Below, piece after piece: positions 17,671 to 18,318 of a stretch of DNA of 42,193 nucleotides; within the stretch, counting starts at the first letter, position 1; each line of letters starts with the position of its first letter. The DNA is from a virus, in the IMG/VR virus record IMGVR_UViG_3300025536_000024, positions 1-42,193 of that record; one strand, given 5' to 3'. The notes under the pieces were generated by a model, which did no database searches, was not told the DNA's origin, and worked only from the letters and a program-made list of their open reading frames with translations. Both the position numbers and the translations under genes were made by a program.

Positions 17671-17804
17671 GTGTTGCCGCGATTAAGCGGGACGGAGATT
17701 TTCGCGCTCTACCAACTGAGCTACTGAGCTTGCGCTCAGGCAGGACTCGAACCTGCGACCACGTCTTTAAGAGAGAAGTAACCGTCCCATGACAACGGCG
17801 ACAC
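17671..17804 (-). ncRNA. Y-RNA-like unit Y3 (134 nt) with circularly permuted tRNA-like domain (YrlA-like)
   Basis: Helix GUGUCGCCG/CGGCAACAC (C:A). T arm GCAGG-UUCGAGU-CCUGC (17740-17756), acceptor-like CUGAGC-GCAA-GCUCAG, then UA and D arm GCUC-AGUUGGUA-GAGC. Confidence 0.75.
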
Positions 17805-17822
17805 TATATTCGATGTATCAAA

Positions 17823-18026
17823 CGCAAGAATGTGGCGATGAGTGAGTGCAGAGCAGAGTTCGCTCGGTTCCCCTTGCAGGTCTCTGCGGACCAATCTCCA
17901 GCGACCACCTACGATGGTCACTTTTGGAGCAGTTAAGCGGGTCGAAACCCACGATAAGTCTTTCGACTCAATGCAACGAAGTTGTTGTAGTGATGTATCT
18001 GCGGCTCTTACAACCACATTCTTACG
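17823..18026 (-). ncRNA. Y-RNA-like unit Y4 (204 nt) with several hairpins
   Basis: 13-bp helix CGUAAGAAUGUGG/CCACAUUCUUGCG; same junction motifs; GAGUC-GAAA-GACUU and GUGGGU-UUCG-ACCCGC tetraloop hairpins. Confidence 0.55.
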
Positions 18027-18037
18027 TTCGATTGAGA

Positions 18038-18148
18038 CACCTGATGTGGCGATAGGGTGGAAGAGCGTGCGGAGTCGAACCGCGAGCCTGTCTTTCGATA
18101 GGTTTCAATCCAGTGAAGTAACTCTTTCCGTTACAACCACGTCAGGTG
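18038..18148 (-). ncRNA. Y-RNA-like unit Y5 (111 nt) with a T-arm-like hairpin
   Basis: 12-bp helix CACCUGACGUGG/CCACAUCAGGUG (C:A); stem GGAAAGAG/CUCUUCC; CCUAUC-GAAA-GACAGG; GCGG-UUCGACU-CCGC. Confidence 0.65.
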
Positions 18149-18166
18149 TCTCAATTATGTCAAAAC

Positions 18167-18318
18167 AGGGAGTGAGGTGCGGCGATTAACGCGGCGGGTT
18201 TTTCGATACTGGAGTCCTGCCGTTAGACGACACCGCCTGGTAGCAGTGCTGGGAGTCGAACCCAGATAACCAGTTTGGAGTGAAGTAGCCCAGTGCTTAC
18301 AACCGCATCTCACTCTCC
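18167..18318 (-). ncRNA. Y-RNA-like unit Y6 (about 152 nt) with permuted tRNA-like domain whose acceptor helix is closed by ACCA
   Basis: Order: ACUGG-UUAU-[CUGGG-UUCGACU-CCCAG]-CACUGCU-ACCA-GGCGGUG-UC-[GUC..GAC]-U-CCAGU; terminal helix GUGAGAUGCGG/CCGCACCUCAC. Confidence 0.7.

What the first reader, a model, noticed from the sequence alone, without database searches (positions are those of the whole stretch)
17671..18318. Two units carry circularly permuted tRNA-like domains, one closed by an encoded ACCA
Y3 reads, 5' to 3': variable-like UGGUC, T arm GCAGG-UUCGAGU-CCUGC, acceptor 3' strand CUGAGC, GCAA tetraloop, acceptor 5' strand GCUCAG, UA, D arm GCUC-AGUUGGUA-GAGC. That is a tRNA whose acceptor ends are joined and whose anticodon loop is opened into the Y-type stem.

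Y6 has the same order: ACUGG, UUAU, T arm CUGGG-UUCGACU-CCCAG, CACUGCU, then ACCA, then GGCGGUG, UC, D arm, U, CCAGU. The anticodon-stem pair CCAGU/ACUGG is intact. The acceptor helix is closed by a discriminator A plus CCA that runs straight into nucleotide +1.

This is the topology known for the YrlA tRNA-like module. It is also that of permuted tRNA genes processed through circular intermediates. The ACCA junction would give RNase P and CCA-recognising enzymes a tRNA-like substrate.
Basis: partly seen in the sequence, partly recalled or inferred. Interest (0 to 1): 0.75.

Follow-up and report, generated by a model that had tools for sequence, protein, structure and literature searches.

The report
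Phage Y RNAs mimicking permuted tRNAs
Two of six small-RNA genes in front of a phage's Ro60 gene fold like tRNAs whose two ends have been joined, a known feature of bacterial "YrlA" Y RNAs; one carries a ready-made CCA tail where the tRNA-processing enzyme RNase P would cut, which is an unusual but incremental variant.

Summary
The window is a tailed-phage genome. Six tandem Y-RNA-like units (17478-18322) lie directly upstream of a Ro60/TROVE gene (16040-17377).

A covariance model of a circularly permuted tRNA, built from the phage's own tRNAs, has its two best hits in the window at Y3 (49.9 bits) and Y6 (39.1 bits). Rfam's YrlA model hits the same two units, below its gathering score. Rearranged Y6 is called a tRNA by ARAGORN in 4 of 4 constructs and in 0 of 500 shuffles.

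Y3 is a canonical closed YrlA module: 6-bp acceptor stem and a GCAA loop. Y6 is a nearly complete permuted tRNA with a tRNA-Glu-like D arm, a 7-bp acceptor stem and an ACCA loop. It sits in the apical loop of a Y1-type scaffold.

Across 169 Ro60 loci, about 90 such modules show compensatory changes and 15:48 covariation. Acceptor loops starting NCCA are enriched (6 observed, about 1.1 expected). The zero-spacer ACCA was found only here.

The literature already calls YrlAs permuted-tRNA mimics. [quoted passage not shown] Verdict: real feature, new variant of a known kind. Cleavage of Y6 is inferred, not shown.

The parts
18333..18377 (-). Promoter-like region in front of the array: TTATCCACA box (18377-18369), TTGACC (18359-18354), extended -10 TGcTATAGT (18341-18333). 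A terminator-like hairpin lies just upstream at 18407-18384.
   Evidence: The TATCCACA, ATTG.CC and TGCTATA(G/T)T blocks are conserved in the same place in L003, L004, L006 and L087. The strict sigma-70 scan found nothing, because the spacer is 15 nt. Function is inferred.
18167..18318 (-). Y6: first Y-RNA unit of the array. Terminal stem GAGAGUGAG/CUCACUCCC, conserved GCGGUUGUAAG...CUACUUC...AAUCGCCGC scaffold, and the tRNA-like module in the apical position.
   Evidence: Motif scan, fold. The scaffold with the module removed aligns end to end with Y1: score 36.5 against 5.1 +/- 2.0 for shuffles.
18208..18274 (-). Y6 permuted tRNA module: 5-bp anticodon stem, 4-nt variable region, T arm, 7-bp acceptor stem, D arm of tRNA-Glu type (UCGUCUAACGGCAGGAC).
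   Evidence: R1 39.1 bits, aligned end to end. ARAGORN calls the rearranged form a tRNA. U8, A14, G18G19, A15:U48 and U54/A58 are present by inspection and. Closest homolog is L071:4885-4951, with a compensated T stem and acceptor stem.
18238..18241 (-). ACCA loop closing the Y6 acceptor stem (discriminator A plus CCA). It is followed directly by G+1 at 18237. The predicted RNase P site lies between 18238 and 18237.
   Evidence: Read from the sequence. NCCA at this position is enriched among Ro60-linked modules. Cleavage is inferred from the M. smegmatis precedent.
18031..18155 (-). Y5: Y unit with only a T-arm-like hairpin (GCGG-UUCGACU-CCGC, about 18069-18083).
   Evidence: The T arm scores 7.6 bits with R1, which is not significant alone. 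Orthologous units in L004 and L006 also keep a T arm. M. smegmatis YrlB also has a T arm.
17820..18031 (-). Y4: long multi-hairpin Y unit with a 19-bp terminal stem. It contains GUGGG-UUUCGA-CCCGC, which is T-arm-like but has a 6-nt loop.
   Evidence: A similar unit with GCGGGUUUCGACCCGC is in L004.
17664..17811 (-). Y3: canonical YrlA-type Y RNA (scaffold GCCGUUGUCAUGGGACGGUUACUUC ... CCGUCCCGCUUAAUCGCGGC).
   Evidence: Rfam YrlA 53.2 bits, E 8e-11. The MFE fold recovers T arm, acceptor hairpin and D arm, z-score -3.3. Orthologs are in L003, L006, L087, L007 and L089, with different paired acceptor stems.
17703..17763 (-). Y3 tRNA-like module: T arm, 6-bp acceptor stem closed by GCAA (17733-17730), D arm GCUC-AGUUGGUA-GAGC, G15:C48, and a short (3-4 bp) bulged anticodon-side stem.
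   Evidence: R1 49.9 bits, the best hit in the window. Rfam alignment.
17568..17651 (-). Y2: short Y unit without tRNA-like features.
   Evidence: No R1 hit.
17480..17558 (-). Y1: short Y unit without a tRNA-like module. It is the sequence relative of the Y6 scaffold.
16040..17377 (-). Ro60/Rsr ortholog (TROVE plus vWA). Likely start is ATG 17377, with GGAGGU 11 nt upstream.
   Evidence: Pfam TROVE E 8.5e-21 and vWA_Ro60. The 445-aa form is 100% identical to database protein P0001, and more than 1000 homologs were found.
19335..21847 (-). Context: array of at least 19 tRNA genes on the same strand, upstream of the Y array. Spacers are 0-2 nt. Only 4 of 19 encode CCA. It includes two adjacent tRNA-Glu genes (21555-21698).

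Best explanation
The region is an operon-like array of six Y RNA genes (Y6 to Y1 in transcription order on the minus strand), followed by the gene for their protein partner, a phage Ro60/Rsr.

Each RNA has a long terminal stem with a conserved GUGGUUGUAA...UACUUC...UAUCGCCAC scaffold, presumed to bind the Ro60 ring. Two of the six carry an effector module that mimics the L-shaped body of a tRNA in circularly permuted order (YrlA type).

Y3 has a 6-bp acceptor stem capped by a stable GCAA tetraloop. It most likely stays closed and acts as a Ro60-tethering scaffold for a tRNA-binding factor, or as a nuclease-resistant cap.

Y6 is a nearly complete tRNA(Glu-like) body with a 7-bp acceptor stem and an ACCA loop. 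It is most likely opened by host RNase P between A(-1) and G(+1). That would give a two-piece Y RNA held together by the anticodon-side stem and the Y stem. It would present a mature 5'-phosphate G1 and a ready-made 3'-ACCA end, so no exonuclease trimming and no CCA-adding enzyme would be needed.

What is shown: the sequence and structure features, their significance, the Ro60 linkage and the comparative conservation. What is inferred: Ro60 binding, co-transcription and RNase P cleavage (about 0.45 on its own).
For: 1. Context. TROVE/Ro60 lies immediately downstream on the same strand. The window is a tailed phage, with TerL, portal and major head protein.

2. Six units share 5' and 3' motifs and long terminal stems. 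Arrays of 2-5 motif-defined units were found upstream of Ro60 in the close relatives checked (69-78% Ro60 identity), plus further units seen by eye (sequences). A conserved promoter-like block precedes them.

3. tRNA mimicry.
- The permuted-tRNA model R1 has its top two window hits at Y3 and Y6.
- Rfam YrlA hits the same two units.
- ARAGORN accepts rearranged Y6 but no shuffle.
- The Y6 tRNA-like fold is only 0.8 kcal/mol above the MFE, and 15 of the window's 19 real tRNAs also miss the cloverleaf as their MFE.

4. Comparative support.
- About 90 distinct closed modules that do not overlap tRNA genes were found in 169 Ro60 loci.
- RNAalifold on a plain MAFFT alignment of 47 modules recovers T arm, acceptor hairpin and D arm. 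13 of 15 pairs have compensatory changes.
- In the 109 distinct closed modules before that filter, pair 15:48 is G:C in 63 and A:U in 31. U8 is present in 99 of 109 and A14 in 103 of 109.
- Y3 has G15:C48 and Y6 has A15:U48.

5. ACCA is not chance.
- Loops begin NCCA in 6 of 74 modules, against 1.1-1.2 expected (P about 2.5e-4).
- Loops begin ACCA in 4, against 0.39 expected (P about 5e-4).
- A seventh case, L087 unit 2 (ACCAAC), is.
- All of these have different 7-bp stems and sit inside Y stems.

6. Precedent. M. smegmatis YrlA, the one studied YrlA with a 7-bp acceptor stem, is cleaved by RNase P in vitro and in vivo and ends in CCA. The 6-bp S. Typhimurium YrlA is not cleaved (PMC4201824; bioRxiv 312249). 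Phage Ro60 binding two upstream Yrl RNAs and host PNPase has been shown for Thermus phage phiLo (PMC12135203).
Against: - No expression, end-mapping or binding data exist for this uncultivated phage, and the host is unknown.
- Both units score below Rfam's YrlA gathering score (53.2 and 22.1 against 69).
- The literal GNCGAAN0-1G motif is replaced by G..G(G/A)UUACUUC-type sequence.
- A 4-nt loop is a constrained RNase P substrate, because the ACCA would be both 5' leader and 3' tail. The -1 base is A, not the preferred U.
- The closest homolog of the Y6 module (L071) and most other Glu-type modules have UUAG, UUCG or CUUCGG loops. ACCA is therefore not conserved within that subclass.
- The R1 loop consensus is 'ACca', which could slightly favour such loops. 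The hits, however, score about 15-40 bits above the lowest scores that passed the E-value cut-offs.
- MFE z-scores of the isolated modules are unremarkable, about -1.3 to -1.4.
Confidence: 0.8

Rival explanations
1. Y6 is a YrlA-type Y RNA, but the ACCA is only a hairpin loop. The RNA stays closed like S. Typhimurium YrlA and is never an RNase P or CCA substrate. The CCA-like loop would be a relic of the tRNA gene junction from which the module descended.
For: - The closest homolog (L071:4885) has UUAG, and other Glu-type modules have UUCG or CUUCGG. Function in that subclass therefore does not need CCA.
- A 4-nt loop is sterically tight.
- The phage's own tRNA array has zero-spacer junctions and some encoded CCA. 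A junction captured from tandem tRNAs would look exactly like this.
Against: - NCCA is enriched 5-fold and ACCA 10-fold at exactly the post-acceptor position, in independent modules with unrelated 7-bp stems.
- Y6 has the full 7-bp stem that distinguishes the cleaved M. smegmatis YrlA from uncleaved 6-bp YrlAs.
- The terminal G1.U72 wobble would let the loop breathe.
Confidence: 0.35
2. The tRNA-like pieces are decaying tandem tRNA genes or pseudogenes left at the edge of the phage tRNA array. They would be unrelated to the Y RNAs.
For: - Tandem tRNA junctions do score with both YrlA-type and R1 models (the same caveat is in Chen et al.).
- The tRNA array is only about 1 kb away.
- 9 of 161 zero-spacer ACCA tRNA junctions in viral contigs reach at least 6 of 7 complementary pairs by chance or relatedness.
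Against: - No tRNA is called at either site.
- The flanks of both modules are not tRNA halves. They are Y scaffolds with the array's conserved motifs and long terminal stems.
- The Y6 flanks are collinear with Y1.
- Y3 orthologs and Glu-type modules are conserved next to Ro60 in distant loci, with compensatory changes.
Confidence: 0.03
3. Y6 is a circularly permuted tRNA gene that matures, through a circular or ligated intermediate, into a functional decoding tRNA, as in Cyanidioschyzon merolae.
For: - The gene order is 3' half, CCA, 5' half, and the tRNA body is complete.
- Ro60 loci are often linked to RNA ligases. One relative has an RNA_ligase gene downstream, and Wang et al. raise the possibility.
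Against: - No anticodon loop or bulge-helix-bulge motif is present. Beyond the 5-bp stem the strands continue into the Y1-type scaffold.
- No RNA ligase or RtcB was found in the ORFs scanned around Ro60 in this window.
- Bacterial splicing endonucleases are not known.
Confidence: 0.02
4. The region is protein-coding, or a DNA-level element such as attP with tRNA fragments or a recombination repeat, rather than a set of RNA genes.
For: Mechanical ORFs of 52-115 aa overlap it. Phage attP sites often contain tRNA 3' fragments (own knowledge).
Against: - The ORFs have no PHROG or Pfam match.
- Conservation among relatives lies in paired RNA positions and loops, not in reading frames.
- Both tRNA halves are present in permuted order and are embedded in stems.
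Confidence: 0.02

Closest known systems
YrlA RNAs (Rfam RF02553; S. Typhimurium YrlA, crystal structure PDB 6CU1; Chen et al. 2014, Wang et al. 2018)
   Same: - Encoded next to Ro60/Rsr on the same strand.
- Long terminal stem plus a tRNA-like domain in the order V, T arm, closed acceptor stem-loop, D arm.
- Same conserved T-loop and D-loop nucleotides and 15:48 covariation.
- Y3 has the same 6-bp closed acceptor stem as the Salmonella RNA.
   Different: - Scores are below Rfam's gathering cut-off.
- The Ro60-side motif GNCGAAN0-1G is replaced by a (G)UUACUUC-type motif and a GUGGUUGUAA/UAUCGCCAC helix.
- The RNA belongs to a six-gene array in a 42-kb phage.
- Y6 uses a tRNA-Glu-type D arm instead of the canonical GCUCAGUUGGUAGAGC.
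Mycobacterium smegmatis YrlA (RNase P-cleaved, CCA-ended)
   Same: 7-bp acceptor stem as in real tRNAs. That RNA is cut by RNase P at the tRNA +1 position, and its 5' fragment ends in CCA while still bound to Rsr. Y6 has the same 7-bp stem and a discriminator plus CCA.
   Different: In M. smegmatis the CCA is completed after cleavage by nibbling and CA addition. In Y6 the full ACCA is genomically encoded and abuts +1 with no spacer. I could not retrieve the M. smegmatis sequence for a direct alignment. Y6 cleavage is untested.
Phage Y RNAs: mycobacteriophage YrlAs (e.g. ET08; 22 phages in Chen et al. 2014) and Thermus phage phiLo Yrl1/Yrl2
   Same: Phage-encoded Ro60 with Y RNAs just upstream. 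The Tonenili locus gives an R1 hit of 36.5 bits and an Rfam YrlA hit of only 31.4 bits, so sub-threshold Rfam scores are usual for phage YrlAs.
   Different: Those loci have one or two Y RNAs, against six here. The Ro60 of this phage is at most 36% identical to any Ro60 in GenBank phages. No encoded CCA has been reported for them, as far as the papers I could read go.
Circularly permuted tRNA genes of Cyanidioschyzon merolae (Soma et al. 2007, as cited)
   Same: The 3' half is encoded upstream of the 5' half. The acceptor stem is initially a closed loop that RNase P and RNase Z open.
   Different: Those precursors have a bulge-helix-bulge motif and a complete anticodon loop sequence, which is ligated through a circular intermediate. 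Y6 has neither.
Two-piece tmRNA from circularly permuted ssrA genes (alpha-proteobacteria, some cyanobacteria; own knowledge)
   Same: A bacterial tRNA mimic encoded in permuted order. Its acceptor end is created by internal processing, and it functions as two base-paired pieces with a CCA 3' end.
   Different: tmRNA is aminoacylated and acts on ribosomes with SmpB. It is not linked to Ro60 and has no D arm or anticodon-stem mimic of this kind.

Membership tests
YrlA-type Y RNA | Encoded within about 4 kb of a Ro60/TROVE gene, on the same strand | tested here: met
   The Y3 module lies about 330 nt and the Y6 module about 830 nt upstream of the Ro60 start at 17377, both on the minus strand.
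YrlA-type Y RNA | tRNA-like domain in the order variable region, T arm, closed acceptor stem-loop, D arm | tested here: met
   Rfam alignment. R1 gives 49.9 and 39.1 bits. RNAalifold on 47 relatives recovers the three helices, with compensatory changes in 13 of 15 pairs.
YrlA-type Y RNA | Nucleotides for tRNA tertiary interactions (U8, A14, G18G19, U54-A58, G53-C61, Levitt pair G15:C48 or A15:U48) | tested here: met
   Read directly in Y3 (G15:C48) and Y6 (A15:U48). Across 109 modules: 94 Levitt-compatible, U8 in 99, A14 in 103.
YrlA-type Y RNA | Long stem formed by the 5' and 3' ends (Ro60-binding module) | tested here: met
   All six units fold with terminal stems of 4-20 bp plus the conserved bulged helix.
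YrlA-type Y RNA | GNCGAAN0-1G motif near the 5' end | tested here: not met
   At the aligned position Y3 reads GACGGUUAC and Y6 reads GGGCUACUUC. The whole phage clade uses a (G)UUACUUC-type variant.
YrlA-type Y RNA | Score at or above Rfam RF02553 gathering threshold (69 bits) | tested here: not met
   53.2 bits (Y3) and 22.1 bits (Y6). The YrlA of Mycobacterium phage Tonenili, from the same phage group as those reported in 2014, also scores only 31.4 bits.
YrlA-type Y RNA | Bound by Ro60/Rsr; modified by TruB and DusA | not testable with these tools
   Needs immunoprecipitation and modification mapping.
RNase P-cleaved, CCA-ended YrlA (M. smegmatis type) | Seven-base-pair acceptor stem stacked on a 5-bp T stem | tested here: met
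   Y6: CACUGCU/GGCGGUG, 7 pairs of which 2 are G.U. Y3 has only 6 bp and does not qualify.
RNase P-cleaved, CCA-ended YrlA (M. smegmatis type) | Cleavage at +1 by RNase P and a CCA 3' end on the upstream fragment | not testable with these tools
   The CCA is encoded (18240-18238). Cleavage needs an in vitro assay or end mapping.
Circularly permuted tRNA gene (C. merolae type) | 3' half upstream of 5' half, with a complete tRNA body | tested here: met
Circularly permuted tRNA gene (C. merolae type) | Anticodon-loop sequence and bulge-helix-bulge motif at the precursor ends, allowing ligation into a functional tRNA | tested here: not met
   The sequences flanking the 5-bp stem are the Y1-type scaffold. 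There is no 7-nt anticodon loop.

The most novel reading that the evidence does not exclude
Y6-type RNAs, and the six other Ro60-linked Y RNAs with an encoded NCCA after a 7-bp acceptor stem, would form a distinct functional class. RNase P opens them into two-piece, Ro60-tethered tRNA bodies with a genuine free CCA end.

The phage would use these as acceptor-end decoys or adaptors. One possibility is soaking up host anti-phage enzymes that attack tRNA 3' ends or acceptor stems. Another is recruiting CCA-binding or aminoacyl-tRNA-binding factors to the Ro60/PNPase machine.

A corollary is an origin for YrlA modules: capture of a tandem tRNA-gene junction into the apical loop of a plain Y RNA. 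The Y1/Y6 pair suggests this.
Probability: 0.12. Interest if true: 0.8.

Novelty: new variant of a known kind. Interest (0 to 1): 0.45.

Why it matters
What the tRNA-like domain of bacterial Y RNAs is for remains an open question. Only one case, in M. smegmatis, is known to be opened into a CCA-ended form.

This phage places a closed canonical module (Y3) and a fully tRNA-like, CCA-encoding module (Y6) side by side, under what appears to be a shared promoter, with four plainer Y RNAs. That gives a natural comparison of the two forms.

The survey adds three points:
- Encoded NCCA loops recur in unrelated Ro60 loci.
- A second, tRNA-Glu-type module class often accompanies the canonical one.
- A cultivable phage, Xanthomonas phage Bolivar, has three unannotated modules, so the biology can be tested experimentally.

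The Y1/Y6 relationship also gives a concrete picture of how such modules are gained or lost.

Tried and rejected
- MAFFT on raw permuted tRNAs misaligned the anticodon-stem strand. I replaced it with an N-padded, gapless alignment.
- My first T-loop regular expression was off by one and missed Y6. It was corrected.
- Two exact-match scans of genome contigs with published M. smegmatis YrlA primers found nothing. No direct sequence comparison with the one experimentally cleaved YrlA was therefore possible. The paper's supplements and two reviews are not held.
- blastn of the array against GenBank phages gave only a 73-nt tRNA-like hit.
- The strict sigma-70 scan found no promoter. The promoter call rests on conservation only.
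- Two viral contigs pattern scans looked for zero-spacer T-loop...ACCA...D-arm architectures. They returned 161 matches. The 9 with complementary acceptor strands are real tandem tRNAs with anticodon arms, not Y6-like modules.
- L152:5945 (loop ACCAAAUUA) turned out to be a tRNA-Val/tRNA-Gln junction and was excluded.
- MFE folding alone does not recover the Y6 T and D arms. I do not count this against the model, because 15 of 19 real tRNAs in the window behave the same way.
- The ORFs overlapping the array have no family matches.
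Full report
**What is there.** The feature is on the minus strand. Reading 18420 down to 17380 shows six tandem units. Each unit starts with G(C/U)GG(U/A)UGUAA (GCCGUUGUCA in Y3) and ends with AUCGC(C/G)(A/G)C. Each folds with a long stem made of its two ends.

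About 100 nt downstream of Y1 begins a 445-aa ORF (17377-16040) with TROVE (E 8.5e-21) and Ro60-vWA domains. It is 100% identical to database protein P0001. Upstream, on the same strand, lie at least 19 tRNA genes. The window encodes terminase large subunit, portal, major head and tail-fibre proteins, so it is a tailed-phage genome. Its Ro60 is at most 36% identical to any Ro60 in GenBank phages. More than 1000 metagenomic homologs exist, many on contigs of about 40-49 kb.

**Checking the observation.** I tested significance in three ways.
- Rfam in E-value mode hits the two units with YrlA (RF02553): 53.2 bits (E 8e-11) for Y3 and 22.1 bits (E 0.077) for Y6. Both are below the gathering score of 69.
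- I built a covariance model of a circularly permuted tRNA from 11 of the phage's own type-I tRNAs. Its order is anticodon-stem 3' strand, variable region, T arm, acceptor 3' strand, four genomic trailing bases, acceptor 5' strand, D arm, anticodon-stem 5' strand. An unfiltered search of the whole window ranks Y3 first (49.9 bits, E 2e-18) and Y6 second (39.1 bits, E 8.5e-14). Both are ahead of all genuine tRNA-tRNA junctions, and Y6 aligns from end to end.
Rejoined Y3 is not accepted.

Y6 is therefore a complete tRNA body lacking only the anticodon loop. Y3 is the partial mimic typical of YrlA, with a 6-bp acceptor stem and a 3-4-bp bulged anticodon-side stem. MFE folding recovers the three arms in Y3 (z -3.3) but not the T and D arms of Y6. 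However, the Y6 tRNA-like fold is only 0.8 kcal/mol above its MFE, and 15 of the window's 19 real tRNAs also fail to give the cloverleaf as their MFE.

**Relatives.** I fetched loci for the closest Ro60 homologs (69-78% identity) and for 160 more distant ones from metagenomes and IMG/VR. The close relatives checked carry arrays of 2-5 motif-defined Y units upstream of Ro60 with the same scaffold motifs, plus further units seen by eye (sequences). An invariant TATCCACA box, ATTG(T/A)CC and TGCTATA(G/T)T precede these arrays. The strict promoter scan finds nothing in the window, because the spacer is 15 nt. A terminator-like hairpin sits just upstream. Co-transcription from this promoter is an inference.

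Y3 has clear orthologs whose acceptor hairpins differ but stay paired:
- window: CUGAGC-GCAA-GCUCAG
- L006: CUCCCGC-AUCA-GCGGGAG
- L087: CAAGUC-UUCG-GACUUG
- L089: CGAAGCC-GCAA-GGCAUCG
- L007: UCCCCCG-ACCAUA-CGGGGGA

Over all loci, R1 finds about 90 distinct closed modules that do not overlap tRNA genes. RNAalifold on an ordinary MAFFT alignment of 47 of them, which is not fitted to my model, recovers T arm, acceptor hairpin and D arm. Compensatory changes occur in 13 of 15 pairs. In the 109 distinct closed modules before that filter, the Levitt pair is G15:C48 in 63 and A15:U48 in 31. U8 is present in 99 of 109 and A14 in 103 of 109. Y3 has the G:C form and Y6 the A:U form. These are real tRNA-fold mimics under selection.

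**Two module classes.** Most modules have the canonical UAGCUCAGUUGGUAGAGC D arm (class 1, as in Y3). A minority have UCGUCUA(A/G)NGG(N)NAGGAC, the D arm typical of tRNA-Glu. In Y6 it comes with a 4-nt variable region (class 2: Y6, L010, L014, L071, L157, L162, and Xanthomonas phage Bolivar). Several loci, like the window, carry one module of each class.

The nearest homolog of the Y6 module is L071:4885-4951. It lies in a six-unit Y array downstream of a Ro60 only 29% identical to this one. It has the same ACUGG/CCAGU stem, the same UUCGACU loop and the same GGACUCCAGUAU. Its T stem and acceptor stem are fully compensated, and its loop is UUAG.

**Origin of Y6.** With the 67-nt module removed, Y6 aligns end to end with Y1 (score 36.5; shuffles 5.1 +/- 2.0, maximum 14.5). 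Y6 is therefore a Y1-type Y RNA with the permuted tRNA body sitting in its apical loop. Equally, Y1 could be a Y6 that lost the module.

The phage's tRNA array has 0-2-nt spacers. Only 4 of 19 genes encode CCA, and two tRNA-Glu genes are adjacent. A junction between tandem copies of one tRNA gene would have exactly the Y6 layout. That origin is a hypothesis, not a result.

**The ACCA.** Among the 74 non-redundant modules with loops of at least 4 nt, the loop begins NCCA in 6 (1.1-1.2 expected; P about 2.5e-4 by within-loop shuffling). It begins ACCA in 4 (0.39 expected; P about 5e-4). The cases are:
- window Y6: ACCA
- L007: ACCAUA
- L128: ACCAUGC
- L150: ACCAU
- L117: GCCAUUUU
- L072: CCCAG
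- L087 unit 2: ACCAAC (found by eye)

All have different 7-bp stems and sit inside Y-type stems with the UACUUC motif. One further candidate was a true tRNA junction and was dropped. Exact-pattern scans of viral contigs for the zero-spacer form gave 161 matches. None was a closed Y6-like module; the complementary ones are real tandem tRNAs. A discriminator plus CCA after a 7-bp stem is thus a recurrent feature. The form with no spacer at all was seen only here.

**Comparison with what is known.** Chen et al. 2014 defined YrlA RNAs. They are encoded near Ro60 and have a T arm, an acceptor-like stem-loop and a D arm, with tRNA tertiary-pair covariation. The authors found 355 candidates in 254 bacteria and 22 phages, and noted that some loci hold several. 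They showed that M. smegmatis YrlA is cut by RNase P in vitro and in vivo and ends in CCA. It was the only one they examined that has a 7-bp acceptor stem. YrlB has a T arm, and both RNAs come from one precursor upstream of Rsr.

Wang et al. 2018 solved the Salmonella module. They called YrlAs mimics resembling circularly permuted tRNAs with closed acceptor stems, and drew the C. merolae analogy. A phage Ro60 (Thermus phiLo) binds two upstream Yrl RNAs and host PNPase.

What I did not find described in the papers I could read:
- a genomically complete ACCA as the entire closing loop
- the recurrence of encoded NCCA loops
- the tRNA-Glu-type second module class
- a six-gene array in a 42-kb phage
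- the Y1/Y6 insertion-like relationship

**Mechanism and confidence.** That Y3 and Y6 are YrlA-type Y RNAs working with the phage Ro60: about 0.85-0.9. That Y3 stays closed: likely, by analogy with 6-bp YrlAs. That Y6 is opened by RNase P to expose pG1 and ACCA-OH: about 0.45. It rests on the 7-bp stem, the NCCA enrichment and the M. smegmatis precedent. The tight 4-nt loop, A at -1, and non-CCA loops in the closest homologs weigh against it. The downstream role (tether, protective cap or decoy) is unknown.

The rivals are weak. Decayed tandem tRNAs and a true permuted tRNA gene are contradicted by the scaffold flanks. A coding or DNA-level element is contradicted by the absence of protein-family matches.

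**Verdict.** Real, non-chance, correctly interpreted. It is a new variant of a known kind, of moderate interest.

Noticed in passing
window 18369-18377 (-), and 17 other sites (e.g. 15155-15163, 22720-22728, 32148-32156): The 9-mer TTATCCACA, identical to the DnaA-box consensus, sits just upstream of the Y-array promoter-like element. TATCCACA is invariant at that place in four related phages. With up to 1 mismatch it occurs 18 times in the window, against 5.6 +/- 2.5 expected (0 of 100 shuffles reach 18). It may be a phage promoter or regulator motif.
   Followed up: partly
window 17478-17562 (Y1) versus 18165-18322 (Y6): With its 67-nt tRNA-like module removed, Y6 is collinear with Y1 (score 36.5 against 5.1 +/- 2.0 for shuffles). 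The module behaves like an insertion into, or a deletion from, the apical loop of a plain Y RNA.
   Followed up: yes
window 18031-18155 (Y5) and 17820-18031 (Y4): Y5 carries a lone T-arm-like hairpin (GCGG-UUCGACU-CCGC), as reported for M. smegmatis YrlB. Y4 has GUGGG-UUUCGA-CCCGC with a 6-nt loop. Orthologous units in L004 and L006 keep these hairpins.
   Followed up: partly
window 19821-19891 (-), 20309-20396 (-), 20667-20697 (-): The two tRNA finders disagree. Rfam finds a tRNA at 19821-19891 (50.4 bits) that ARAGORN misses. ARAGORN finds tRNA-Ser(tga) at 20309-20396 that Rfam misses. A tRNA-like D arm (UAGCUCAUCAGCAGAGC) in the unannotated gap 20621-20696 suggests a further divergent or degenerate tRNA.
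   Followed up: no
L171 (Xanthomonas phage Bolivar MW822535) 2292-2387, 2519-2625, 2768-2876: A cultured 43.8-kb phage has three unannotated tRNA-like Y modules upstream of its 'hypothetical' Ro60 gene (R1 56.1, 33.0 and 35.0 bits). One has the tRNA-Glu-type D arm. This could serve as an experimental model.
   Followed up: partly
L071 4040-4985: An AT-rich contig has a six-unit Y array downstream of Ro60, interspersed with tRNA genes. Its scaffold motif is different (GGUGCCGUAGAUAAGAGUUACUUC ... UUUAUCGUUUGUUGCCC). It contains both a class-1 module and the closest homolog of the Y6 module.
   Followed up: partly
L006 3206-3375: This Y unit has a T arm followed by a roughly 20-bp 'acceptor' hairpin and a mini D arm (GCUC-GUAA-GAGC). 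It shows how far the acceptor-like stem can be extended within this phage clade.
   Followed up: no
window 12717-14279 (-), 21863-22549 (-), 23535-24347 (-): The phage encodes a GroEL/Cpn60-family chaperonin, a vWA-domain protein next to the tRNA array, and a Band_7/SPFH protein. Chaperonin and Band_7 genes recur near Ro60 in the related contigs.
   Followed up: no
window 19335-21847: tRNA genes are packed with 0-2-nt spacers, and only 4 of 19 encode CCA (Cys, Asn, Gln, Ser-tga). Most have AC or ACC after the acceptor stem. Many Y-module loops in other loci likewise begin with AC or ACA.
   Followed up: partly
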